From positions 7,237 through 71,236 of the forward strand of contig JAFTCT010000034.1 of NCBI GenBank assembly GCA_017454525.1: DNA of 64,000 nucleotides, in the 5' to 3' direction. The position numbers were made by a program, and so were the translations under genes. This DNA is from Clostridia bacterium. Its GTDB lineage: Bacteria > Bacillota > Clostridia > Oscillospirales > CAG-272. Below the pieces are notes generated by a model. That model had not been told where the DNA came from. It was given only the letters and a program-made list of their open reading frames with translations, and made no database searches. This document shows positions 56,801 to 64,000 of this stretch, piece after piece (the first letter of the stretch is position 1; every line of letters starts with the position of its first letter).

Positions 56801-58069
56801 TATACCTCCACGGTATCCGATCCGCGCGGCGTCGGCGGCGGACGGGGGATCGTGGCGATCTACGGCGACGTCGTGACCGGACACGCGCCGGAATCCTTTG
56901 AGCCGACGGTGAACGAGAACGATGAGTACGCGGCGTTCGGCGGCATTTCTAAGATGTTCACGGCTGTCGAATTCTATTCCGCGACCAATGCGTTCGAGAC
57001 CTGGCCGTTCGCCGACAACGGGACCTGGTGCGCGCGCGCGTCCTTCCACGTGCTCATCCGCGTCAGCGACAGCGGACTCAACTATCTCGCGACGGGTCTC
57101 GGCACGGAGAATTACCCCTATACGTGGAAATTCTACTATCAGGAAGCAAACGCCGCAAACGGAACGGAATGGACCGGTCCGTACACCGGTTTCGTTGAAA
57201 CGAAGTCGAACGCGAGTTTCCTGCGTCATCAGGTCGCGGACTGCCCGGAGGGCGACCTCTGCGCCGATTTCGTCGTAGGTAAGAACTATAATCTGCTGTT
57301 CGACGTATACAAGGGCAGCGAGCACGTCGGCTTCGGCGTTCTCCCCTTTACCTGGACTGCAAAATACGATGCAAGCCATAATCTGTATACCGATTTCTGG
57401 CTCCACCACGACAGGGAAGAGGGATACAGAAGCGGCGACCAGACGGTAACGCAGCGCGACAGTTCTGCGGCTTCGGGGCTTGGCTTCAATGCAAGCGGCA
57501 GCTACGCGGGTACCGCGCATACGCATTCCTTCGGAGAATGGACGGAAACGGGCGCCGGCGGCGATACCGGTATAACGGTTTTTCAGAGAGTCTGCTCTTC
57601 CTGCGGGTATACCGAACAAAAAACGGAACGTCAGGAGCACGTACACACGCCTGTGATCGACGAGTCTTATCCCGCGACGTGTACGGAAGAGGGAAGGACG
57701 GAAGGCGCGCACTGTTCAGAATGCGGCGAGATCATCAAAGCGCAGGAAACGATCCCGCCTCTCGGTCATCTGTGGGACGGCGGCGTCATAACGGTGTCGC
57801 CCACCTTGCAGAGCGAGGGGGTCATGACCTACACCTGTCAGCGATGCGGATCCGTTCACTGCGAGCCGATCCCGGCGATCGAAAGGACGCACGGCGACGT
57901 CGACGGTGACGGCGAACTGTCGATCAATGACGTCACGGCGCTGCTGGATCTTCTCGCGTCGTCGAGGCCTGACGCGCCGGTCGTGCCTTATACCGATATT
58001 GACGGCGACGGCGAACTGTCGATCAACGACGTTACAGCCCTTTTGGATATTCTGTCGGGCGCCGCATAA
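47837..58069 (+). CDS. Giant (~3,410 aa) secreted multimodular protein: 3 discoidin/CBM32-like modules, unknown modules, metallophosphoesterase, BspA-type LRRs and Listeria-Bacteroides repeats, 2 discoidin modules, GH89 alpha-N-acetylglucosaminidase, Cys/His-rich motifs, dockerin
   Basis: It is a single uninterrupted frame. The ATG at 47837 lies 5 nt after GGAGAG and is followed by a signal peptide ('MKRALSFILSVLMIVSLAVPYSLLVHS'). Domain motifs are listed in the sub-features and findings. Confidence 0.85.
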   Translation: MKRALSFILSVLMIVSLAVPYSLLVHSTPVQSGEASSDELFEKAVVSVGKPVTIGAKKTSVPKVTDGITNTNNNYTDSTNYGTVAPRSQAAVSTCYVEIDLGKEYPVSAINTVTYVKGSRVYKWDAYLSTDNSRPIDEWTLAGGKTTDEVSTYDGYTLTFNPVNARYVRVYGTANSDNTSFHWLEVLVYAELCSVSAGKTAAAGSGADAAVVTDKEKTNDGCIDIPWGSSSGNASSAYGVSGNCYVEIDLEEVRLLSEINVVNYLNTGRYYQWEAYGSCDRNAPVSSWRKLCENKSKCVSTAHGVTVSFEPAPVRYLRIYGTYNSANTGYHFVEVTAYSGNKVKANAAGGKTAFLSDGSMSGSLTDSALDVPVSFGAWGSDPGDEASSFGISGGCYAEIDLGSATDIFAIFVQNPDKNYKWAAYSAPDRTLPIAQWNKLGGKEELAANAAHEIGFDVHSARYVRIYGLYNARGGQFHANEIAVYAASKQKTSVFGIEPVGDGFVNLKSKDATNGFALQTVVKILDGDVSAEELKEKLTNGSYSAHLVFTDPYGSPYEISADPHRYDGDDVWYFEPVLKGFVPVKGQYYTLRIDIYNRQGDLCYTASGEPFVCLFNPVYVYDEGLPGAYTAPVSILSYPSGTPAVLSNGAPVLRVSGLHDRYFAESDPEADGFDLSRSVRFFVDGVEYLDPHFVPVGGKSYSDRTAEADMRTLGFAPSAGISHHIEISVYSPSYPSGATVTEERGFLPAASFSSEVTGEIGYSYEIYESEGDVTVSFINGSYLLTATGAHKPGYTFKGWYSDGLLISTEQTYTFPAASGENRLIVGMYVPSSGEQTGVQDPPDDHGAEISNGALPGLTYSFNNDLKGSAAGTVTFEATASGTYSFFWLDAMDRKLSASMNGKIIPYSSIRTAQVSAGGSLSFDLQPYTAIPYGAKKIAVYKGSAMTVSLALPEEKLLAEEYRYAYGLMSDLHYNTFPKYVEGGGETDYAIDSVNNAYRFFREAGVTTVFQTGDYSCYQDEVAYQRYAEGVAASGLTVLAAGGNHEVNGTFEKMFGENGLWFRYVNLGVYNGQNENVIEIAPDGFNFVYRYPAADDVFVFVSQEKWDGRKETQGYLISPGAVSWLEGVLERYRDKTVHLMLHTFFADDDGENVDGEGDFTNSVGYGYHYNYNVHTEDYRALRALLAKYRNVIWFNGHSHWTYAMQQLNVNLNVFDYNGTFATCVHVPSVTAPRTVGDTGTAYSSNAGSKSEGTLAFRGDGYEIIAGVDFMSGELLSYGCYIVYDQSDGSARVEGELGNGTNYVFDRQTSVLSITGNGDMPDFTAPENAPYAAFADEVKKVYISNGVTSVGRNAFGGFSSLETAELKGSVLTVGENAFGGDHALASLSFTDSVKRVGSNAFSGVGPSLAVRYDGALERFEEIEISGGNDALQTATKTFTKYVITFVFGDIRDTRDVRAGEIPVYDGTVFKAHDDPGKSYLFAGWTDGLICYSDDLPEVSSNAVYYALFNEMEGGTAEGDDRYIHWFLDKASGLLTITGYGPMTDYAEGAAPWYPYRDYIRNIVVKKGVLSLSENAFRDLTAVVTVTLETKLISIGGCAMMGMTSLKSLYLPSTFAFGAKRMTYQSSSLEHIYFDGSAEEYAETGSVVRLWGNNEDFAPDGGKMIYHTGVTHEETFTAIFRNDDGTVLAVYDNVAWGTGVTPPEMHDRENEYFLGWNGNYRYVTDDLVLTAVFSTEKDPDLDVEIEPKSLAVKPYYGKIENYGGATYFITGITADSNETLFSRLKSGAMKLRATLKDENTKRSYIVEEYHFDTPSYEFYGTSFLRLNFCSYGVVPDPAHAYTVALDVYSGKNTIYSGISEEGAFLTTNEAFAENGAIVPSAPPYTCTVICTTHERASGDCTTEGECRYCGQTLPAGEHTVVTDPRVAPTATKTGLTEGAHCAVCGKIIIPQEIIPATGVEGVNVALYKKVLGVGAGKTSITDGDTSISNFWDGGVYPSGAIIDLDGYYDLSDINVVTYHGDGRYYCFTVETSTDGRNWTQVGAKTDNEAADENGTDIPVQITARYVKITITKNSANTSAHLVEVSVYGVVCPDFTPAEAVTVDAADPGNVAFAKPTRSNSYGSISDYVNDGSDATVWGAYYFPSYVDIDLLSEYDLTSVKISMPGDGYTYAYTVYASTDGINFTRIAKTDGLVASPAGGRSFIFEDPVVCRILRVNVTACGGGTYKTAKIAEIRAYGTLRTELPEAVRSKMTFKTYDEWIEEYAGVDLSAIRRPDGGYDLKDTFTEEDTVNEIRGIVARLLGAEYDSWFTFDVCDNPNGNGKDFFMIEDSDGKVKISGSDGTCIAAGLNWYLKYFCSVHISQETAQVRMPSVCPTVGEPVMKETAQKIRYAYNYCTLSYTMAFYGYEDWRRELDWLYLNGVNLILDLSGVEALWVSYLQKLGYSADEAKNYACGPGYKAWWLMGNLENFNGTVSDTYVADMLEMARRNQRSMTVMGASPALQAFVGTMPDSFGFEANEALTALGYDPVAPALTAQGLWQGFDRPNVLRTDYNGYSYLAQLFYETEEELFGAVTDYFCGDVCHEGGKIPAGLTKADMSAVILGELMKYRETGVWMLQRWQSNPTRAELDGMSAYRTTNVIVIDLASARDTSKWKNTSTYGGKEFGSTNWIFSSLDNFGGRPLMHGALQAVVNNIADAKKNASYMVGMGMTPEGTENNPVYYDLYWEMVWRDEAPDVREWIEAYAARRYGAVSESILAGWEKLLLSVYAYPNTNGTSGNFMVIGNKPRFDSYVGGYYEVQYSNRTLLEALGELLTDFDTLADNECYIYDLVEIMQTYLANKAQNYISTMIAMSGNPNCYSYDEFEMLCERFLDVIALENEISSYSENQLLGKWLARSADFMSDERTGDYDDYMADTFTTNGKMLISSWTSSGVLIDYANRLYNGLTEDYYLKSWSAFLENMKTRFLAGQSSSTQVYPSANYLLDALNFVLSEKEYTSTVSDPRGVGGGRGIVAIYGDVVTGHAPESFEPTVNENDEYAAFGGISKMFTAVEFYSATNAFETWPFADNGTWCARASFHVLIRVSDSGLNYLATGLGTENYPYTWKFYYQEANAANGTEWTGPYTGFVETKSNASFLRHQVADCPEGDLCADFVVGKNYNLLFDVYKGSEHVGFGVLPFTWTAKYDASHNLYTDFWLHHDREEGYRSGDQTVTQRDSSAASGLGFNASGSYAGTAHTHSFGEWTETGAGGDTGITVFQRVCSSCGYTEQKTERQEHVHTPVIDESYPATCTEEGRTEGAHCSECGEIIKAQETIPPLGHLWDGGVITVSPTLQSEGVMTYTCQRCGSVHCEPIPAIERTHGDVDGDGELSINDVTALLDLLASSRPDAPVVPYTDIDGDGELSINDVTALLDILSGAA
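50700..51540 (+). other. Calcineurin-like metallophosphoesterase domain inside the giant protein
   Basis: The ordered MPE motifs are 'SDLHY' (D-x-H, ~50738), 'TGDYS' (GD), 'GGNHE' (GNHE, 50954-50968), 'LMLHTFF' (H) and 'NGHSHW' (GH-x-H, 51416-51430). Confidence 0.75.
54570..56800 (+). other. GH89 (NAGLU-like) alpha-N-acetylglucosaminidase catalytic region inside the giant protein
   Basis: It has the NAGLU TIM-barrel signature 'YAYNYCT.SYTM.F..YEDW..ELDW..LNG.NL.L' and 'GP.Y.AWW.MGNL'. The two candidate catalytic Glu motifs are 'HEGG' (Glu codon 55571-55573) and 'TPEG..NNPV.Y.L' (Glu codon 55955-55957). A helical C-domain follows. Confidence 0.8.
57893..58066 (+). repeat. Type I-like dockerin (two duplicated Ca-binding segments) at the C-terminus of the giant protein
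   Basis: The protein reads 'GDVDGDGELSINDVTALLDLL' and 'DIDGDGELSINDVTALLDIL', 33 aa apart. The DNA segments 57902-57949 and 58001-58048 are near-identical. Confidence 0.85.
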
Positions 58070-58088
58070 TCGGTCCCGAAACAGAAAA

Positions 58089-58128
58089 AATCGGTGCTGC
58101 CGGATTTTCCGGCGGCACCGATTTGTTT
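58089..58128. terminator. Bidirectional rho-independent terminator
   Basis: A 15-bp hairpin pairs AATCGGTGCTGCCGG (58089-58103) with CCGGCGGCACCGATT (58109-58123). An A-run lies upstream and a T-run downstream. Confidence 0.8.
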
Positions 58129-58145
58129 TTGAAGTCGATTGAAGA

Positions 58146-59546
58146 TCAGACGGTATGGATCTTATTGACGGGATCGCTTGTACCCTGATCGATACCGAGC
58201 TTCGCCGCTTTCCTCTGTTCGAAGAATTTAGTTGCGACCTGCTCGAAGAGCGCGTAGGACAATACGTCTTCCTCCTGCTCCATATAGGGCGCGACCTTCT
58301 TTCTCAATTCCTCAAGTTCGGGTTTGAGCAGGTCTGCGGGACGGCAGGTGATCGGCTGTTCGTCGCCGAGGATCCTCTTCTGGAAGTCGGGATCGATCGG
58401 AACGGCGGGTCTGCCGTATTCGCCGCGGATGAGCGCTTTGAATTCCTTGGTGACGCTCTTGTAGCGCTCGCCGTAGATCACGTTCATGACCGCCTGCGTG
58501 CCGACGATCTGAGAGGACGGAGTGACAAGCGGAGGATAACCGGCGTCGGCGCGGACGCGCGGCACTTCCTCAAGACACTCGTCAAGTTTCTCGGATTTGC
58601 CCATCTGCTTGAGCTGAGAGATCAGATTGGAGAGCATTCCGCCCGGCACCTGGTAGAGCAGGGCGTTGACGTTGACCTTCAGGACCTTGGGATCGAGCAG
58701 ACCGCTTGCAAGATACTTCTCACGGAGTTTCGTGAAGTATTTCGAAACGACGTCGAGCTTCTTGAGATCGAGGCCTGTGTCGTAAGGCGTGCCCTGGAGC
58801 GCCGCGACCAGCGGCTCCGTGGGCGGCTGGGAGGTGCCCATCGCCATCGGAGAGATCGCCGTATCGACGATATCGCATCCGGCTTCGATCGCCTTCAGCG
58901 CGGTCATCGAGGCAAGCCCCGCGGTATAGTGCGTATGCAGTTCGACCGGCAGATCGGGGAACGCCGCTTTGAGCGCCTTGACGAGTTCCTCCGCCGCGTA
59001 GGGCTTGAGAAGTCCCGCCATATCCTTGATGCAGATCGAATTGACGCCCATATCGACCAGCTGCCTCGTGTAATTCACGTAATATTCGGTCGTATAGACC
59101 GGACCGGTCGTATAGGACATCGCGACCTGCACGTGGCCGCCTTCCTTGTTGGTGGCTTTGATCGCCGTTTCAAGGTTTCTCGCGTCGTTCAAGGCGTCGA
59201 AGATCCTGATGATGTCGATGCCGTTTGCAAGGGATTTCTGAACGAAATACTGAACCACGTCGTCGGAATAATGACGGTAGCCCAAAATATTCTGTCCTCT
59301 GAAGAGCATCTGAAGTTTCGTGTTCTTAACTTCTTTTCTGATCTTGCGCAGACGTTCCCACGGATCCTCGTTGAGGAATCGGAGGCAGGAATCAAACGTC
59401 GCGCCGCCCCATGCTTCAAGGGAATAGTAGCCGACTTCGTCCATCGCCTTCAGGATCGGGAGCATCTCCTCGGTCGTCATTCTCGTTGCGATCAGAGACT
59501 GGTGAGAGTCACGAAGGACTGTTTCGCAAATTTTTACCTTTGCCAT
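58146..59546 (-). CDS. Oxaloacetate decarboxylase alpha / transcarboxylase 5S-type carboxyltransferase without a fused biotinyl domain
   Basis: It has a HMGL-like TIM barrel with 'ETVLRDSHQS', 'CIKDMAG' (the lysine position corresponding to the carbamylated Lys in characterised homologues) and 'HTH'. It is 466 aa and ends before any 'AMKM' motif. Confidence 0.88.
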   Translation of the reverse strand: MAKVKICETVLRDSHQSLIATRMTTEEMLPILKAMDEVGYYSLEAWGGATFDSCLRFLNEDPWERLRKIRKEVKNTKLQMLFRGQNILGYRHYSDDVVQYFVQKSLANGIDIIRIFDALNDARNLETAIKATNKEGGHVQVAMSYTTGPVYTTEYYVNYTRQLVDMGVNSICIKDMAGLLKPYAAEELVKALKAAFPDLPVELHTHYTAGLASMTALKAIEAGCDIVDTAISPMAMGTSQPPTEPLVAALQGTPYDTGLDLKKLDVVSKYFTKLREKYLASGLLDPKVLKVNVNALLYQVPGGMLSNLISQLKQMGKSEKLDECLEEVPRVRADAGYPPLVTPSSQIVGTQAVMNVIYGERYKSVTKEFKALIRGEYGRPAVPIDPDFQKRILGDEQPITCRPADLLKPELEELRKKVAPYMEQEEDVLSYALFEQVATKFFEQRKAAKLGIDQGTSDPVNKIHTV

Positions 59547-59564
59547 ATCTTTATCCTTTCTAAA

Positions 59565-61094
59565 TCACTTGAATTGTGCGAGCAGGAATCCCGCCGCGAC
59601 CGCCGAACCGATGACGCCGGCGACGTTCGGCCCCATGGCGTGCATCAGCAGATAGTTCGCGGGGTTTTCCTTCTGACCCTGGATCTGCGAAACGCGCGCT
59701 GCCATAGGAACGGCGGAAACGCCGGCAGAACCGATAAGAGGATTGACTTTACCCTTGGTGAGCCAGCACATGACGTTGCCGCCGATCAGTCCGCCGCAGG
59801 TCGAGACCGAGAAGGCGACAAGACCGAGAATGATGATGAACAGCGTCTTGGGGCTGAGGAAGTTGGATGCCGTCGCCGTCGCGCCGACGGTGATGCCCAA
59901 AAAGATCGTGACAATGTTGAGCAGTTCGTTCTGCGCCGTCTTGGAAATCCTGTCCGTCACGCCGCAAGTGGTCAGCAGGTTACCGAACATCAGGCAGCCG
60001 ACAAGCGGTCCGGCGTCGGGAATGATCAGGATCACTGTGCAGGTCACGACGATCGGGAAGAGGATCTTTTCGAGTTTTGAAACGGGACGCGGCGCCGTCA
60101 TGACGATCTGACGGTTCTTTTTGCTGGTCAGAAGTTTCATGAAGGGCGGCTGGATCATCGGGATCAGCGCCATGTAGGAGTACGCCGCGATCGCGATCGC
60201 GCCGAGCAGGTGAGGCGCCAGCGTCTTGGTGACGATGATCGCCGTCGGTCCGTCGGCTCCGCCGATGATGCCGATCGACGCCGCTTCCTGAGGCGTAAAT
60301 CCGAAGAAGATCGCGCCCGCGAACGCGACGAAGACGCCGAGCTGCGCGGCTGCGCCCAGAAGCAGGCTCTTGGGATTGGCGATCAGCGGTCCAAAGTCGG
60401 TCATCGCGCCGATGCCGATGAAGATCAGGCAGGGGTATATGCCGAGTTTTACGCCGAGGTACAACAGGTCGAGCAGTCCGCCGTAATGCGATACGTTCTG
60501 CATATCGGGTCCTTCTTCATTGACCGTAAGCGATTCAATGGAGATGTACAGCGACTTCGAAACCGACTTTCCGTTGTCTTTCATCGCGTCTGCAAACCCT
60601 AAAAGCGTTTCTTTCAGTTCAGCTGACGAAAGGTCTTTTTTGTATGTCAGATCGTCATAGGTTTTCGCCTTGTCGATGTAAACGGAAGCGCCTTTTGCAC
60701 TCAATGCGCTGACCATCTGCGAGAGCAGCGGGTGGATATTCGTTACGTTCTTCTGTTCATCCACCTGAATTTCGATCAGATCCTCTTTATTCAGATATCC
60801 GTTTTCGACCATCGCGTCGCGCACGTCCTCGATAACGACGGCTTCATCGTTGCTGATGAACAGATCCATGTGAAACATTTCGGTTCCGGGCAGGTTGCCG
60901 AGCAGCATACCGATCGCGATCGGCAGCAGGAGCAGCGGCTCGAATTTCTTTGCGATCGCGAGATAGACGAGGACGCCGACGATCGCAAACATCGCAATGA
61001 GTTTCAGGATCTCTATGACGTCCCCGATATCGGCAATCTTCGCTATACCGGTGGAACCGAGAAACGTTTTCAGCGTTTCAAGTATATTTCCCAT
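59565..61094 (-). CDS. Na+-translocating decarboxylase beta subunit (OadB/MmdB/GcdB family), with an enlarged soluble insertion
   Basis: It has 'AIAKKFEPLLLLPI', 'GAMTDFGPL', 'GGADGPTAI', 'AAYSYMALIP.IQPP' and 'SAGVSAVPMAARV'. It is 509 aa. Confidence 0.9.
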   Translation of the reverse strand: MGNILETLKTFLGSTGIAKIADIGDVIEILKLIAMFAIVGVLVYLAIAKKFEPLLLLPIAIGMLLGNLPGTEMFHMDLFISNDEAVVIEDVRDAMVENGYLNKEDLIEIQVDEQKNVTNIHPLLSQMVSALSAKGASVYIDKAKTYDDLTYKKDLSSAELKETLLGFADAMKDNGKSVSKSLYISIESLTVNEEGPDMQNVSHYGGLLDLLYLGVKLGIYPCLIFIGIGAMTDFGPLIANPKSLLLGAAAQLGVFVAFAGAIFFGFTPQEAASIGIIGGADGPTAIIVTKTLAPHLLGAIAIAAYSYMALIPMIQPPFMKLLTSKKNRQIVMTAPRPVSKLEKILFPIVVTCTVILIIPDAGPLVGCLMFGNLLTTCGVTDRISKTAQNELLNIVTIFLGITVGATATASNFLSPKTLFIIILGLVAFSVSTCGGLIGGNVMCWLTKGKVNPLIGSAGVSAVPMAARVSQIQGQKENPANYLLMHAMGPNVAGVIGSAVAAGFLLAQFK

Positions 61095-61144
61095 TTTGTA
61101 ATTCCTTTCAGAAGAGTATTCGGCTTACAAAAACCGGTACGGGA

Positions 61145-61513
61145 TCATTTGAGAGAGCAAAGCAGATCGTCGGTCTGGACCGCGGCGCCCTTGTTGACGT
61201 TCACGGAAGCGACCACGCCGTCTGCGGGCGCTTTGATCTCGTTCTCCATTTTCATTGCCTCGACGACCATCAGGACGTCTTCCTTCTTGACCGCCTGACC
61301 GACGGCAACGTTCACTTTCAGAACGGTGCCGGGGAAGGGGGATTTCACGGGGGTGGAGCCGGCTGCCGCCGCTGCTTTGGGGGCTTCCTTGACAGGCGCT
61401 TTGACAGCGGGCGCCGCAGGAGCGCTGCTCAACGCGACCGCCGCGTCTGCGGCTACTTCTTCTACGACCACTTCGTATGTAGTTCCGTTAACGGTAACAC
61501 TGAATTTTCTCAT
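61145..61513 (-). CDS. Biotin carboxyl carrier subunit (MmdC/1.3S-like)
   Basis: It has an 'MRKFSVTVNGT.YEV.VEE' N-terminus, an Ala/Pro linker and the biotinylation motif 'EAMKMEN'. Confidence 0.9.
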   Translation of the reverse strand: MRKFSVTVNGTTYEVVVEEVAADAAVALSSAPAAPAVKAPVKEAPKAAAAAGSTPVKSPFPGTVLKVNVAVGQAVKKEDVLMVVEAMKMENEIKAPADGVVASVNVNKGAAVQTDDLLCSLK

Positions 61514-61537
61514 GATAGTTCTCCTCTGTTATTCCTC

Positions 61538-61912
61538 TTATTTTTTGTTCCACGCGGGTTTCGCGGTCGTTTTCCTGAAGGATACGACTCTGAAGGATCC
61601 CGGATCTGCTTCAAGACATACCGCAACGGCGGCTGTGATCGCGGCGACGAGCTCGGCGTCATCCGCCTGTTCGGTTTCTGCTTCCGCTGCAGCGGGCGCC
61701 GGTACGTCCTGTTTTTCCGGAGGCGACGCCTTTTTCTTTTTCTCCGTGCTCTGGAAGACCTTGCCGACGATCATGATCACGAACATGATCAGCAAGAGCA
61801 CCGCGAAAACGACGAGCATTCCCAGAAGCAGCGTCGTCAGCGACAGGGAGAACTTATCTCCTACGCTGAGTGAGCCGCCGTCAGCGGAGGCAAACAATAA
61901 TTTTGTCATCAT
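61538..61912 (-). CDS. OadG-family small membrane anchor subunit
   Basis: It has a single TM, an Ala/Pro/Glu linker and a C-terminal 'AAITAAVA......FRVVSFR' segment typical of OadG/MmdD-like proteins. It sits inside the operon. Confidence 0.7.
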   Translation of the reverse strand: MMTKLLFASADGGSLSVGDKFSLSLTTLLLGMLVVFAVLLLIMFVIMIVGKVFQSTEKKKKASPPEKQDVPAPAAAEAETEQADDAELVAAITAAVAVCLEADPGSFRVVSFRKTTAKPAWNKK

Positions 61913-61932
61913 CGTTCATCCTTTCCTTGCAT

Positions 61933-63363
61933 TTACAGCGGAAGGTTGCCGTGTTTCTTGTAGGGTGCGGAGGTCGCTTTGCCGGACAGCATTTCAAGGG
62001 TCGCGGCAATTCTCATACGGAGTTCCTCAGGCGCGACGATATCGTCGATATCGCCGTTGCGCGCCGCGTTGATCGGAGCGCAGATCTCTTTCCACGCCGC
62101 TTCCTTGGCGGCTTTTTCAGCCATGGGATCGGCGGCGGATCTGATCTCATCCGCATATATGAATTCCACCGCTGCGTCGACGGGCATGACCGAGATCGAA
62201 GAGGAGGGAAGTGCGTATACGACGTCGGCGCCCAGAGTCTTGGATCCGAGTACGGTAAACACGGCGCCGTATGCCTTTCCGGTGATCACGGTGACCTTCG
62301 CGTTAACGGAACTTCCGTAGACGGCGGCAAGGCGCGCGAGCTTCGACGAGAAGGGCGCTTTCTCCGCTTCGCAGTCGAGCGAAGTTCCTTCACAGTCTAC
62401 GAGCGTAATGACGGGAATGTTGAAGGAATCGCAGAAAGACACGAATTTCGACGCTTTCTCCGCTCCTGCGGCGGAAAGACGTCCGCCGGCGGCAACAAGT
62501 CCGACGGTGATGCCAGCGACGGAACCGATAAAGGTTTTCGTCTGCGGCGCGTATTCCGCACAAAGTTCAATGGATGACGCGGCGTCAAGGATCTCCTTTG
62601 CGATCTCCTCGGGCGTGCCGGCGCCGGTTACCGCTCTGTTGGCGGTATCGCCGTTTTCGGTATAAGCCGTACCCTCCGCATTGTTGGAAGGGAAGAGCAA
62701 GACCGCTTTTTTCGCCTGTGCAAGCGCTTCATCTACGGTATTGACGACCAGCGAAACGGCGCCGCTGCGCGCGGCTTCTCTGACGCTGCCGCCGTCCTTA
62801 TCGCCCTGCGCCTTCAATGACACGGGCGGCGTTACGTACAATTTGCTGTCTGCGCTTGCGATCACGACGTCAGCCATTTCCGCGATCGCGGCAAGAGAAC
62901 CGGAGCACGTGCCGGCGATCACGGCGATCTGCGGTATCACGCCGGAAGCGGACGCGCACGCCTTCATGACCGAACCGTAGCCGGACAGCACGGAAACGCC
63001 CTCGAGGACCTTGGCGCCGGCGGAATCGTACACGCCGATCACGGGGGCGCCCGCCTTGATCGCGGCGTCATAGAGCGACACGATCTTTTTCGCGTGCGCT
63101 TCACTCATTGCGCCCTTCATTCTTGAAAGATCCTGAACAAAAGAAAAGACCAACTTTCCGTCGACAGCGCCGTATCCCGTCACAACACCTTCAAATTCGT
63201 TGCCCGGCGCTTCGTCATAACCGGTCGTCGTCTTCTTGACAAAACGGCCGAGTTCCACGAAAGTTCCGGCATCGAACAGGGAAGATATGCGATCGTACGC
63301 CGCACCGCCGCCGTTCAGCAGGTCCTCGTAGTGTTCAAGAGTACTCTGTTTGATCTGATCCAT
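61933..63363 (-). CDS. Acyl-CoA carboxyltransferase subunit (MmdA/12S/PccB family), divergent
   Basis: It has a two-lobed crotonase-like CT: 'GVVTGYG..DG..V....QD', 'DSAGAKVLEG', 'IPQIAVIAG.CSG', 'P.ITLVDC.G' and 'ITGKAYGA'. I prefer the ATG at 63363 (GGAGA 8 nt upstream) over 63378. Confidence 0.82.
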   Translation of the reverse strand: MDQIKQSTLEHYEDLLNGGGAAYDRISSLFDAGTFVELGRFVKKTTTGYDEAPGNEFEGVVTGYGAVDGKLVFSFVQDLSRMKGAMSEAHAKKIVSLYDAAIKAGAPVIGVYDSAGAKVLEGVSVLSGYGSVMKACASASGVIPQIAVIAGTCSGSLAAIAEMADVVIASADSKLYVTPPVSLKAQGDKDGGSVREAARSGAVSLVVNTVDEALAQAKKAVLLFPSNNAEGTAYTENGDTANRAVTGAGTPEEIAKEILDAASSIELCAEYAPQTKTFIGSVAGITVGLVAAGGRLSAAGAEKASKFVSFCDSFNIPVITLVDCEGTSLDCEAEKAPFSSKLARLAAVYGSSVNAKVTVITGKAYGAVFTVLGSKTLGADVVYALPSSSISVMPVDAAVEFIYADEIRSAADPMAEKAAKEAAWKEICAPINAARNGDIDDIVAPEELRMRIAATLEMLSGKATSAPYKKHGNLPL

Positions 63364-63507
63364 AACAGCATTCTCCATTCCCGACAGCCGATAGTATTGT
63401 AATGACGAGACGGTCCGCGGCTGTCGTTGCGGACTGCTCGGAAAATCTGTTCAAAGCGCCGGAGCGCTCTTATGAACACGGGATCCATATAACCCCATCT
63501 TGAGCGT

Positions 63508-63536
63508 ATTATACTACATTTCAAAGAGAAATTCAA
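63508..63536 (-). promoter_or_regulatory. Sigma-A-type promoter of the decarboxylase operon
   Basis: On the minus strand it reads TTGAAT (63531-63536), a 17 bp spacer, then TATAAT (63508-63513). The leader is about 140 nt and contains a 9-bp stem, CGACAGCCG...CGGCTGTCG (63382-63390 with 63418-63426). Confidence 0.65.
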
Positions 63537-63611
63537 TAGTTTAAAGAAATAAAATCTAAAATGAAGCAAATAAAATCATAACAGCCGCGCAAACCGGCAG
63601 AATACGCACCG

Positions 63612-64000
63612 TCATGAATATCTGAAACGCTGTTTCTCCAAAGTACAGCGGTAAGCACCCTCATAATCGTCCGTTGCCTTACAGTAGCGTTCGAGATCGT
63701 CGTAAGCCTTATAGACGAACGGAAAAGGGATGCCGGAAGGATCGTCAACGACCTCCTTGATGAGGGTTTTGGCGCGGTCATAGTTATTCATGGAGGCGGC
63801 AATGCGGGCGTTGAAATGACTTCTGAAGAAGGGGTTTTTGATACTCATCAGCGCGTAGAGCCGGACGGCGTCGTCGATCTGGCCGTGATCGATCAGAGCG
63901 TTGAGAAAAACGTACTGCTGCTCATCCGAATACAGCGGATCATCCGGTATTCCGGCAAACAACGAGGGAATGTTGAGGAGCTTCGGCGCGCGGATCTGCT
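63612..64000 (-). CDS. Hypothetical helical (TPR-like?) protein, 3' portion only
   Basis: The frame stays open to the window edge, so the TTG at 63962 in the track is not necessarily the start. I recognise no family. Confidence 0.45.
   Translation of the reverse strand, partial: QIRAPKLLNIPSLFAGIPDDPLYSDEQQYVFLNALIDHGQIDDAVRLYALMSIKNPFFRSHFNARIAASMNNYDRAKTLIKEVVDDPSGIPFPFVYKAYDDLERYCKATDDYEGAYRCTLEKQRFRYS

What the first reader, a model, noticed from the sequence alone, without database searches (positions are those of the whole stretch)
58146..63536. Five-gene biotin-dependent Na+-decarboxylase operon carries two different carboxyltransferases
Transcribed on the minus strand from a TTGAAT-17-TATAAT promoter, the genes are tightly spaced. 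Their order is: acyl-CoA carboxyltransferase (MmdA/12S type), OadG-like anchor, free BCCP ('EAMKMEN'), Na+-pumping beta subunit, then an OadA/5S-type oxaloacetate-pyruvate carboxyltransferase that lacks its own biotinyl domain. Characterised systems, as I know them, carry one carboxyltransferase per membrane pump: MmdABCDE or GcdABCD with a CoA-ester carboxyltransferase, OadABG with the TIM-barrel carboxyltransferase. The soluble Propionibacterium transcarboxylase combines 12S, 5S and 1.3S without a pump. This operon encodes parts for all three. Two carboxyltransferases might share one BCCP and one Na+ pump, or the complex might switch between transcarboxylation and Na+-coupled decarboxylation.
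Basis: partly seen in the sequence, partly recalled or inferred. Interest (0 to 1): 0.55.

Follow-up and report, generated by a model that had tools for sequence, protein, structure and literature searches.

The report
Sodium-pump oxaloacetate decarboxylase with extra carboxyltransferase
A ruminant-gut Clostridia bacterium has one tightly packed five-gene operon that encodes a complete sodium-pumping oxaloacetate decarboxylase plus a second, strongly remodelled acyl-CoA-type carboxyltransferase; this layout is common in uncultured relatives, I found no biochemical study of it, and the extra subunit's job is unknown.

Summary
Window 58146-63363 (minus strand) holds five genes in one transcription unit: a PF01039 carboxyltransferase (CT1), an OadG/MmdD-like anchor, a free biotin carrier (EAMKM), OadB, and a biotin-less OadA. 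There is one promoter and one terminator.

The OadA/OadB/OadG/BCCP set is a complete split-type Na+ oxaloacetate decarboxylase. All residues I checked are intact.

CT1 is not a normal MmdA:
- It scores 318 bits against a cut-off of 999.
- All the glycine-rich loops are rewritten.
- It forms its own clade, yet it is under strong purifying selection (dN/dS 0.05-0.12).

The five-gene order is present in 64 of the 80 best loci out of 359 species-level hits. It is therefore a standard genomic layout, but I found no paper that characterises it.

Genome context argues against the obvious CoA substrates:
- Methylmalonyl-CoA mutase was found in 0 of 61 relatives.
- Fatty-acid synthesis genes are missing from this genome and from most CT1 carriers.
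- No biotin carboxylase was found in this genome.

My best reading is an oxaloacetate-driven Na+ pump, fed by GTP-PEPCK, that carries a retained but re-purposed second carboxyltransferase. Whether CT1 is catalytic or structural is open.

This scan has already reported the same layout many times on other DNA. I rate it a new variant of a known kind, of moderate interest.

The parts
63508..63536 (-). Promoter-like site TTGAAT-17 nt-TATAAT
   Evidence: the only sigma-70-like site in 57800-63800, 10 of 12 matches; the -35/-10 pair is conserved in the four closest loci (L008-L011).
63364..63502 (-). About 139-nt 5' leader with predicted structure. Its 3' part (GACGAC...GTTGTCGGGAATGGAGAA) is conserved and abuts the ribosome-binding site.
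   Evidence: MFE -49.9 kcal/mol, z -2.7 against shuffles; no Rfam match; the 3' segment is conserved in L008-L011.
61933..63363 (-). CT1: a divergent two-domain acyl-CoA-type carboxyltransferase (476 aa). The canonical motifs are replaced by QDxSRMKGA, DSAGA, GxCxGS, VDxEG and GKAYGA.
   Evidence: PF01039; mmdA TIGR01117 318 bits against a cut-off of 998.8; best PDB hits are 1x0u, PCC beta and 12S at E 1e-75 to 1e-81, with GcdA at only 2e-11; motifs; dN/dS 0.05-0.12; own clade.
61538..61912 (-). OadG/MmdD-like single-pass membrane anchor (124 aa) with a C-terminal AAITAAVA...FRVVSFRK motif
   Evidence: PF04277 at E 4.8e-21, TIGR01195 above its cut-off, MmdD NF047902 below its cut-off; the same C-terminal motif occurs in operons with and without CT1.
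61145..61513 (-). Free biotin carboxyl carrier protein (122 aa): an N-terminal MRKFSVTVNGTTYEV strand, an Ala/Pro linker, and biotinyl-Lys88 in EAMKM
   Evidence: It is the only clear biotin protein in the genome; the only other PF00364 match is weak (26 bits).
59565..61094 (-). OadB Na+-translocating carboxybiotin decarboxylase (509 aa), with a genus-specific insertion of about 127 aa (residues ~74-200, nt ~60495-60875)
   Evidence: PF03977, TIGR01109 475 bits above a cut-off of 191; aligned to Salmonella OadB 6iva. E40, D203, Y229, R304, N311, N373, G377, S382 and N412, named essential in PMC7274780, are all kept; the long form occurs only in genus mates and L008-L011.
58146..59546 (-). OadA: oxaloacetate/pyruvate carboxyltransferase (466 aa; TIM barrel plus PYC_OADA domain) without a biotinyl domain
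   Evidence: NF008985 775 bits, above a cut-off of 718. PycB 5ks8 at 524 bits, V. cholerae OadA 2nx9 at 517 bits, 5S 1rqb at 467 bits. LRDxHQS, KDM and HxH are invariant; near-identical RNA contigs in a bovine gut metatranscriptome.
58088..58124 (.). Bidirectional intrinsic terminator (17-bp stem) shared with the convergent 10-kb gene

Best explanation
The operon encodes a membrane-bound, biotin-dependent Na+ pump whose working reaction is oxaloacetate decarboxylation. OadA transfers the carboxyl group of oxaloacetate to the free BCCP. The oxaloacetate is made from PEP by the genome's GTP-dependent PEP carboxykinase. OadB, held together with the OadG-like anchor, decarboxylates carboxybiotin and expels Na+.

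CT1 is a fifth, co-translated subunit that descends from an MmdA/12S-like carboxyltransferase. Its active-site loops have been rewritten but it is kept under purifying selection. It most likely still docks the BCCP. It then serves either as a side outlet or inlet for the carboxyl group with an unidentified acceptor, or as a non-catalytic core or regulator.

Shown: gene content, the single transcription unit, intact OadA, OadB and BCCP residues, conservation of the layout, the selection regime, and the genomic context.
Inferred: complex formation, the direction of flux, and any activity of CT1.
For: - Complete, intact OAD parts.
- One promoter, one terminator and gaps of 18-50 nt.
- The order CT1-G-BCCP-B-OadA is seen in 64 of the 80 best loci. 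Of the other 16, ten stop early in the operon (several at a contig end), four show no G hit and two lack OadB. These come from 359 hits among 185,579 species genomes.
- GTP-PEPCK is present in this genome. This genome has no biotin carboxylase, one OadB, one OadA and one clear BCCP.
- CT1 has dN/dS of 0.05-0.12, similar to OadB at 0.02-0.12. Four of its five remodelled loops are more conserved than the protein mean, so CT1 is a working protein rather than a decaying gene.
- CT1 evolves faster than its partners: mean pairwise identity is 0.55, against 0.81 for OadA and 0.75 for OadB.
- OadAs linked to a CT are 66-91% identical to this one. Those of CT-less operons are 57-59% identical. This fits co-adaptation of OadA with a CT partner.
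- OadA and BCCP sequences appear in RNA contigs from a bovine gut metatranscriptome.
Against: - Operons in the same family run G-BCCP-B-OadA with no CT in the genome, so CT1 is not needed for a pump. A purely structural role is therefore not compelling.
- No candidate substrate or product pathway for CT1 was found in the genome.
- Pyruvate kinase was not found in this 93%-complete genome, but it is present in four of six genus mates. The pump may therefore not be the main PEP-to-pyruvate route.
- No biochemical data exist for any member of the CT1 clade.
Confidence: 0.6

Rival explanations
1. Membrane-anchored transcarboxylase/decarboxylase switch. CT1 is an active acetyl-CoA (or propionyl-CoA) carboxyltransferase. 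Carboxybiotin loaded from oxaloacetate is either passed to the CoA ester, giving ATP-free malonyl-CoA as proposed for the pump-less clusters of C. thermocellum and Caldicellulosiruptor, or decarboxylated by OadB to pump Na+.
For: - A CT / hypothetical protein / BCCP / OadA cluster in C. bescii has a FapR site and is derepressed together with the fab genes in a fapR deletion (PMC7071700).
- C. thermocellum lacks a standard ACC, and a metabolic model recruits Clo1313_1523-1526 as a transcarboxylase (PMC5414155).
- The C. thermocellum carboxyl transferase Cthe_0699 is found in the membrane fraction (PMC3039559).
- This genome has no biotin carboxylase.
- The specificity position (PccB D422 / Methylorubrum D407) is an invariant Thr in CT1, not Asp.
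- Relatives with AccD/AccA but no AccC or AccB imply that the BCCP of this operon feeds other carboxyltransferases.
Against: - This genome lacks FabH, FabD, FabF, FabZ, FabK and AccA/D.
- FabF is absent from most CT1 carriers: 30 of 41, and most of the own genus. Malonyl-CoA would have no consumer in those genomes.
- Genomes that need malonyl-CoA but lack AccC keep AccD/AccA alongside CT1, which argues that CT1 is not the acetyl-CoA carboxyltransferase.
- The motifs GGS, DSGGAR, AGG, PGFxPG and YGG are all altered. That these motifs are universal in the family is from my memory.
- I could not show that the C. thermocellum or C. bescii CTs belong to the CT1 clade.
Confidence: 0.2
2. Dual-substrate Na+ pump: a methylmalonyl-CoA (or glutaconyl-/malonyl-CoA) decarboxylase and an oxaloacetate decarboxylase that share one beta subunit and one BCCP. 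Both feed carboxybiotin to the pump.
For: - The first four genes have the content of the mmdA-D-(E)-C-B operon of Veillonella. The Veillonella order is from my memory.
- G and BCCP give their best named hits to MmdD and MmdC, though below the cut-offs.
- The closest solved relatives of CT1 are MmdA-like, PCC beta and 12S proteins.
Against: - Methylmalonyl-CoA mutase was found in 0 of 61 genomes of the order, this one included.
- CT1 scores 318 bits against the mmdA cut-off of 998.8.
- GcdA is only a remote hit, at E 2e-11.
- No conserved neighbour supplies a carboxylated CoA ester.
Confidence: 0.08
3. CT1 is a pure pseudoenzyme: a non-catalytic hexameric core or regulatory subunit inherited from a transcarboxylase-like ancestor. 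It organises OadA dimers and BCCPs on the membrane or senses a CoA ester.
For: - All the glycine-rich catalytic loops are changed, and the PGFxPG equivalent shows only average conservation.
- CT1 evolves faster than the catalytic partners.
- No metabolic context exists for any CoA substrate.
- Purifying selection shows that the protein is needed.
Against: - The remodelled loops QDxSRMKGA, DSAGA, GxCxG and GKAYG are themselves among the better-conserved segments and gained invariant Arg and Lys residues. That looks like a binding or active site.
- CT-less operons work without such a core.
Confidence: 0.3

Closest known systems
Split-type Na+-translocating oxaloacetate decarboxylase of Enterococcus faecalis (OadA, OadB, OadD biotin carrier, OadH). 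Repizo et al. 2013, cited in PMC8100219; the paper itself is not held, so details are from memory.
   Same: A biotin-less OadA, a separate small BCCP, an OadG-like small subunit and OadB. The CT-less sister operons G-BCCP-B-OadA in this family match it part for part.
   Different: Here a fifth gene, CT1, heads the operon. There is no citrate lyase in the genome, so citrate fermentation is not the source of oxaloacetate.
OadABG of Salmonella, Klebsiella and Vibrio (EC 7.2.4.2; PDB 6iva/6iww, 2nx9; PMC7274780)
   Same: OadB aligns at 376 bits with every residue reported essential kept. OadA aligns at 517 bits to V. cholerae OadA.
   Different: The alpha subunit there carries its own association and biotinyl domains, and there is a single carboxyltransferase. 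The beta subunit here has a longer cytoplasmic insertion.
Methylmalonyl-CoA decarboxylase MmdABCDE of Veillonella parvula and Propionigenium modestum (EC 7.2.4.3)
   Same: The gene content and order CT-delta-BCCP-beta. The CT belongs to the same broad PccB/MmdA/12S group.
   Different: CT1 fails the mmdA model and has rewritten catalytic loops. There is no mutase pathway. An oadA gene is appended.
Methylmalonyl-CoA:pyruvate transcarboxylase of Propionibacterium (12S, 5S, 1.3S; PDB 1on3, 1rqb)
   Same: A 12S-like protein, a 5S-like protein and a 1.3S-like carrier are encoded together. From memory, the BCCP N-terminus (MRKFSVTVNGTTYEV) resembles that of 1.3S.
   Different: A membrane anchor and a Na+ pump are present. 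OadA scores below the 5S equivalog cut-off (580 against 827). There is no methylmalonyl-CoA metabolism.
Putative oxaloacetate:acetyl-CoA transcarboxylase clusters of C. thermocellum (Cthe_0699-0701 / Clo1313_1523-1526) and Caldicellulosiruptor bescii (B5X54_RS07175-07190)
   Same: CT, a small hypothetical protein, BCCP and OadA in one cluster, in Clostridia that lack a standard ACC.
   Different: Those clusters have no OadB, sit in organisms with FASII, and in C. bescii are FapR-regulated. Here a pump is present and FASII is absent. Their CT sequences could not be fetched, so membership of the CT1 clade is untested.

Membership tests
Na+-translocating oxaloacetate decarboxylase (EC 7.2.4.2), split Firmicute type | OadA-type carboxyltransferase (TIM barrel plus PYC_OADA) with its metal and catalytic residues | tested here: met
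   NF008985 equivalog at 775 bits, above its cut-off of 718. D13/H15/Q16, K174-D-M and H204/H206 are invariant in 35 sequences. That these residues are the metal and catalytic ones is from memory.
Na+-translocating oxaloacetate decarboxylase (EC 7.2.4.2), split Firmicute type | OadB with the residues essential for Na+ binding and decarboxylation | tested here: met
   The alignment to 6iva keeps E40, D203, R304, N311, S382 and N412, plus Y229, N373 and G377. The residue list comes from PMC7274780.
Na+-translocating oxaloacetate decarboxylase (EC 7.2.4.2), split Firmicute type | Biotin carrier with an (E)AMKM biotinylation site, and an OadG-type anchor | tested here: met
   PF00364 with EAMKMEN; PF04277 and TIGR01195 above their cut-offs.
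Na+-translocating oxaloacetate decarboxylase (EC 7.2.4.2), split Firmicute type | Na+-dependent oxaloacetate decarboxylation and Na+ transport | not testable with these tools
   Needs membranes or a reconstituted complex.
Methylmalonyl-CoA decarboxylase (MmdABCDE) | Alpha subunit that meets the mmdA model | tested here: not met
   TIGR01117 at 318 bits against a cut-off of 998.8.
Methylmalonyl-CoA decarboxylase (MmdABCDE) | A supply of methylmalonyl-CoA (methylmalonyl-CoA mutase) | tested here: not met
   PF01642 was found in 0 of 61 genomes, this one included. The control found it in 8 of 14 named genomes.
Methylmalonyl-CoA decarboxylase (MmdABCDE) | Canonical glycine-rich loops of acyl-CoA carboxyltransferases (GGS, DSGGAR, AGG, PGFxPG, YGG) | tested here: not met
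   They are replaced by KGA, DSAGAK, SGS, EGTSLD and YGA. A canonical CT from the same order (L097) keeps them all. That the motifs are universal and form the oxyanion holes is from memory.
Transcarboxylase (12S/5S/1.3S) | Soluble complex with no pump subunit; 5S equivalog | tested here: not met
   OadB and OadG lie in the operon. NF008984 (5S) scores 580 bits against a cut-off of 827.
ATP-free malonyl-CoA-forming transcarboxylase (C. thermocellum / C. bescii type, proposed) | Occurs with FASII in a genome that lacks biotin carboxylase | tested here: not met
   Biotin carboxylase is absent, but FASII is absent too. FabF was found in only 11 of 41 other CT1 carriers.
CT1 clade (uncharacterised, Clostridia) | Signature QDx[SD]RMKGA plus [FLY]EGV[VI][TC]GYG, and a position at the head of a G-BCCP-(B)-OadA operon | tested here: met
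   The clade has SH-aLRT support of 98 on a stem of 0.71.

The most novel reading that the evidence does not exclude
In Clostridia that have lost biotin carboxylase, the single BCCP of this operon is a carboxyl hub. OadA loads it from oxaloacetate without ATP. OadB discharges it to pump Na+. Other carboxyltransferases tap it. CT1 would then be a carboxyltransferase with a new, non-(methyl)malonyl substrate, marked by its invariant Arg/Lys loop. In some relatives the orphan AccD/AccA pair would be a further client. That would be a membrane-bound machine that splits one carboxyl pool between energy conservation and biosynthesis.
Probability: 0.2. Interest if true: 0.75.

Novelty: new variant of a known kind. 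Interest (0 to 1): 0.45.

Why it matters
Biotin-dependent Na+ pumps are textbook examples of one substrate, one carboxyltransferase and one pump. Here hundreds of gut and rumen Clostridia species carry a conserved version with a second, selected but rewritten carboxyltransferase. They do so in genomes that lack biotin carboxylase, fatty-acid synthesis and the methylmalonyl-CoA pathway.

Working out what CT1 does would show one of two things. These abundant fermenters may couple oxaloacetate decarboxylation to something besides Na+ export, such as ATP-free carboxylation or regulation. Alternatively, they may keep a pseudoenzyme as an architectural subunit.

It also bears on metabolic models of rumen and gut Clostridia. 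I expect automatic annotation to label this gene methylmalonyl-CoA decarboxylase or propionyl-CoA carboxylase, and the context data here argue against both labels.

Tried and rejected
- Complex prediction with CT1 + OadA + BCCP residues 1-45, scoring the BCCP piece as partner: score 0.00, verdict 'no answer'. It says nothing either way.
- Rfam scan of the leader: no match.
- Conserved neighbours: clustering the flanking ORFs of 80 loci found nothing beyond the five genes, apart from a lineage-specific amidohydrolase-like gene in 23 loci.
- Citrate lyase and ATP-type PEPCK as oxaloacetate sources: not found in this genome.
- 'OAD replaces pyruvate kinase': PK was not found here, but it is present in four of six genus mates and in most CT1 carriers. 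I dropped this as a general explanation.
- 'CT1 supplies malonyl-CoA for lipids': rejected for this lineage.
- 'CT1 is Mmd alpha for propionate formation': rejected.
- A type-I-specific tail on OadG that could dock CT1: none. The C-terminal motif is shared with CT-less operons.
- Phylogeny against named MmdA, GcdA, PccB and 12S sequences: I could not fetch named reference sequences into the tree. I used HMM cut-offs, PDB phmmer scores and unnamed canonical CTs of the same order instead.
- RNA cover of CT1: no near-identical RNA contig lay on CT1 in the one metatranscriptome I laid. A hole in contig data proves nothing.
- The AMP-binding ligase cluster on contig C139 sits beside a class-IV aminotransferase and a 2-oxoacid:ferredoxin oxidoreductase. 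It looks like branched-chain acid metabolism with no link to CT1.
- Repizo et al. 2013 (PMC3623145) is not held.


Full report
**What is there**

On the minus strand of window 58146-63536 lie five open reading frames separated by 20, 24, 50 and 18 nt. Pfam and NCBIfam identify them as follows:
- a two-domain carboxyl transferase, which I call CT1 (PF01039, E 8.5e-74);
- an OadG-family single-pass protein (PF04277; TIGR01195 above its cut-off; weak MmdD match);
- a 122-aa biotin carrier with EAMKMEN;
- OadB (PF03977, E 4.7e-153);
- a 466-aa OadA with HMGL-like and PYC_OADA domains and no biotinyl domain (equivalog NF008985, 775 bits against a cut-off of 718).

No minus-strand terminator-like site lies inside the operon. 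A 17-bp hairpin with T-runs on both sides (58088-58124) follows oadA and also serves the convergent 10-kb gene. The promoter is conserved in the four closest loci. With an 18-nt gap before oadA, separate transcription of the last gene is very unlikely.

Contigs from sheep and bovine gut DNA runs of other studies span CT1-G-BCCP and B-OadA with about 1% differences. RNA contigs from a bovine gut metatranscriptome match oadA and the BCCP gene almost exactly.

**The oxaloacetate decarboxylase half is complete and looks competent**

OadA aligns over its full length to three solved proteins:
- the two-subunit pyruvate carboxylase beta chain 5ks8, at 524 bits;
- V. cholerae OadA 2nx9, at 517 bits;
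- the 5S subunit 1rqb, at 467 bits.

The LRDxHQS, KDM and HxH positions are invariant in 35 relatives.

OadB aligns to Salmonella OadB (6iva, 376 bits). It keeps Glu40, Asp203, Arg304, Asn311, Ser382 and Asn412, which the eLife study found essential. It also keeps Tyr229, Asn373 and Gly377.

This 2.35-Mb, 93%-complete genome has one OadA, one OadB, one clear BCCP and no biotin carboxylase. This operon is therefore its only biotin enzyme system.

A GTP-type PEP carboxykinase is present. ATP-PEPCK and citrate lyase were not found. PEP carboxylation is thus the visible source of oxaloacetate.

**CT1 is the odd part**

Its best solved relatives are an MmdA-like protein of Sulfolobus (1x0u), PCC beta chains and the 12S subunit, at E 1e-75 to 1e-81. 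GcdA and MCC beta are remote. However, it scores only 318 bits on the mmdA model, whose cut-off is 998.8.

I aligned CT1 with a canonical CT from the same order (L097). The motif changes are:

| Canonical motif | CT1 |
|---|---|
| FxxGGS | SRMKGA |
| DSGGA(R/N)IQEG | DSAGAKVLEG |
| GPCAGGxxYSP | GTCSGSLAAIA |
| VPGFFPG | CEGTSLD |
| RKAYGGAY | GKAYGAVF |

From memory, two of these motifs form the oxyanion holes of PccB (Gly182/183 and Gly419/Ala420).

The PDB alignment also shows that 6ybp and the variant 8pn7 differ at L100, Y143 and D407. From memory, those positions were engineered to change acyl specificity. In CT1 the equivalents are Met, an invariant Tyr and an invariant Thr. Family-invariant Arg81 and Lys83 sit two and four residues before the L100 equivalent.

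The new motifs are shared by all 17 diverse family members aligned. A tree puts 73 CT1 sequences in one clade (SH-aLRT 98) on a stem of 0.71 substitutions per site, away from canonical-like CTs.

**CT1 is not a decaying gene**

| Gene | dN/dS in close pairs |
|---|---|
| CT1 | 0.05-0.12 |
| OadB | 0.02-0.12 |
| OadA | 0.01-0.03 |
| OadG | 0.1-0.33 |

Four of the five remodelled loops are more conserved than the protein average (0.76-0.86 against 0.68). The PGFxPG equivalent is only average.

CT1 does evolve faster overall. Mean pairwise identity is 0.55, against 0.81 for OadA, 0.75 for OadB and 0.67 for BCCP.

**How common is the layout**

A pattern scan of one genome per species (185,579 species) gave 359 confirmed CT1 relatives. 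All of the best 80 are uncultured Bacillota/Clostridia from animal and human guts. Of these 80:
- 64 show CT1-G-BCCP-B-OadA in that order;
- 10 stop early in the operon, several at a contig end;
- 4 show no G hit by tblastn;
- 2 (L052, L072) lack B inside the operon. Their genomes carry an OadB elsewhere, and they nest inside the CT1 tree.

Among 61 genomes of the same order, 50 have both OadB and OadA and about 30 have CT1 next to them.

Several members of the same family (G008, G023, G025) and one of the same order (G049) have the same operon without its first gene, G-BCCP-B-OadA, and no PF01039 protein anywhere. Their OadA is only 57-59% identical to this one. CT-linked OadAs are 66-91% identical.

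The arrangement is therefore a standard genomic type, not a rarity. This scan has already reported it repeatedly on other DNA. Six literature searches found no paper that describes or assays a pump with two carboxyltransferases.

**What could CT1 do**

The literature offers one lead. Pump-less clusters of CT, a small hypothetical protein, BCCP and OadA are annotated as oxaloacetate decarboxylase in C. thermocellum, C. cellulolyticum and Caldicellulosiruptor (PMC3561251).
- A C. thermocellum model uses its cluster as a transcarboxylase that makes malonyl-CoA, because the organism lacks a standard ACC. ODC activity was not detected in that organism (PMC5414155).
- In C. bescii the cluster has a FapR site and is derepressed together with the fab genes (PMC7071700).
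- The C. thermocellum CT is found in the membrane fraction (PMC3039559).

I tested whether that role fits here, and it does not.
- This genome has no FabF. By tblastn with a relative's fab cluster it has no FabH, FabD, FabZ, FabK, AccD or AccA either.
- Five of six genus mates also lack FabF.
- Of 41 further CT1-bearing genomes, only 11 have FabF.

The methylmalonyl-CoA route fails too. Methylmalonyl-CoA mutase was found in none of the 61 genomes, while the control search found it in 8 of 14 named genomes. No conserved neighbour suggests another CoA ester.

**A side observation bears on the shared-BCCP idea**

Four relatives (G015, G032, G034, G035) keep FASII genes with AccD and AccA beside them. 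They have no biotin carboxylase, and their only BCCP is the one in the five-gene operon. Genomes that do have AccC have an AccB next to FabF.

The simplest reading is that in these species AccD/AccA takes carboxybiotin that OadA loaded from oxaloacetate. That supports the view that this BCCP can serve more than one carboxyltransferase. It also argues that CT1 is not the acetyl-CoA carboxyltransferase, because AccD/AccA is kept alongside it.

**Conclusion on mechanism**

The operon most likely builds an oxaloacetate-driven Na+ pump of the split (Enterococcus-like) type.

CT1 is a retained, selected and re-purposed descendant of an MmdA/12S-like subunit. A more canonical CT (G047, which keeps GAR, AGG and GGA) in the same five-gene layout suggests that the ancestral complex had two working carboxyltransferases.

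Whether CT1 today transfers a carboxyl group to an unknown acceptor or acts as a non-catalytic core or regulator cannot be settled by sequence.

I give about 0.6 to the umbrella reading: an OAD pump with a re-purposed fifth subunit. The pure-pseudoenzyme reading (0.3 in the rival list) is one of the two sub-cases inside that umbrella, so the figures are not meant to add to 1. Outside the umbrella, I give 0.2 to a transcarboxylation/pump switch with ordinary CoA substrates and under 0.1 to a dual-substrate decarboxylase.

**Verdict**

This is a new variant of a known kind: widespread, uncharacterised and already seen many times in this scan. Interest is moderate.

Noticed in passing
window 60495-60875 (OadB residues ~74-200): OadB carries a hydrophilic insertion of about 127 aa between the first membrane block and the core. 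The long form (507-521 aa) occurs only in the own genus (G000-G006) and the closest loci L008-L011. Other relatives have 372-470 aa, and Salmonella OadB has about 54 aa in this region.
   Followed up: partly
window 63364-63502 (minus strand): The 139-nt leader folds better than shuffles (z -2.7) and matches no Rfam family. Its 3' hairpin next to the ribosome-binding site (GACGAC...GTTGTCGGGAATGGAGAA) is conserved in L008-L011. It may be a regulatory element.
   Followed up: partly
relatives G015, G032 (L102), G034 (L101), G035: The fatty-acid synthesis clusters hold ACP, AccD, AccA and FabH/K/D/G/F/Z but no AccB or AccC. No biotin carboxylase was found in these genomes, and the only BCCP is the one in the five-gene operon. 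This implies ATP-free, oxaloacetate-dependent malonyl-CoA synthesis across two gene clusters.
   Followed up: partly
relative G050 (L097, L105): A fully canonical CT (578 bits on PF01039, Ile at the PccB-D422 position) stands alone on one contig. OadA-x-BCCP-OadB lie on another contig. The genome has FabF but neither AccC nor AccD/AccA.
   Followed up: no
G000 contig C136 (L001:1-1649): A second CT1-family gene (453 aa) is followed by a truncated OadG-like gene on a 5-kb contig, beside a transposase-like ORF. Its GC3 is 80%, against 69% for the window's CT1. In the tree it sits in another subclade on a long branch. It is probably foreign or mis-binned DNA.
   Followed up: partly
own genome G000 and 60 relatives: FabF was found in 22 of 61 genomes of the order and AccC in 16 of 61. 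Most of these small-genome gut Clostridia appear unable to make fatty acids. Pyruvate kinase was not found in this genome, while GTP-PEPCK is present.
   Followed up: partly
relatives, e.g. G049 (L104:10081-11211): Many genomes carry a second, orphan OadB (about 375 aa, about 51% identical) with no carboxyltransferase, BCCP or OadG beside it. In G049 it lies next to pyruvate kinase.
   Followed up: no
G000 contig C139 (L109:2131-13934): Three tandem AMP-binding (acyl-CoA ligase-like) genes lie beside a class-IV aminotransferase and a 2-oxoacid:ferredoxin oxidoreductase. Two of the three ORFs as called carry cupin or HTH N-terminal parts, or possibly fuse two genes. This may be a branched-chain volatile fatty acid assimilation cluster.
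   Followed up: no
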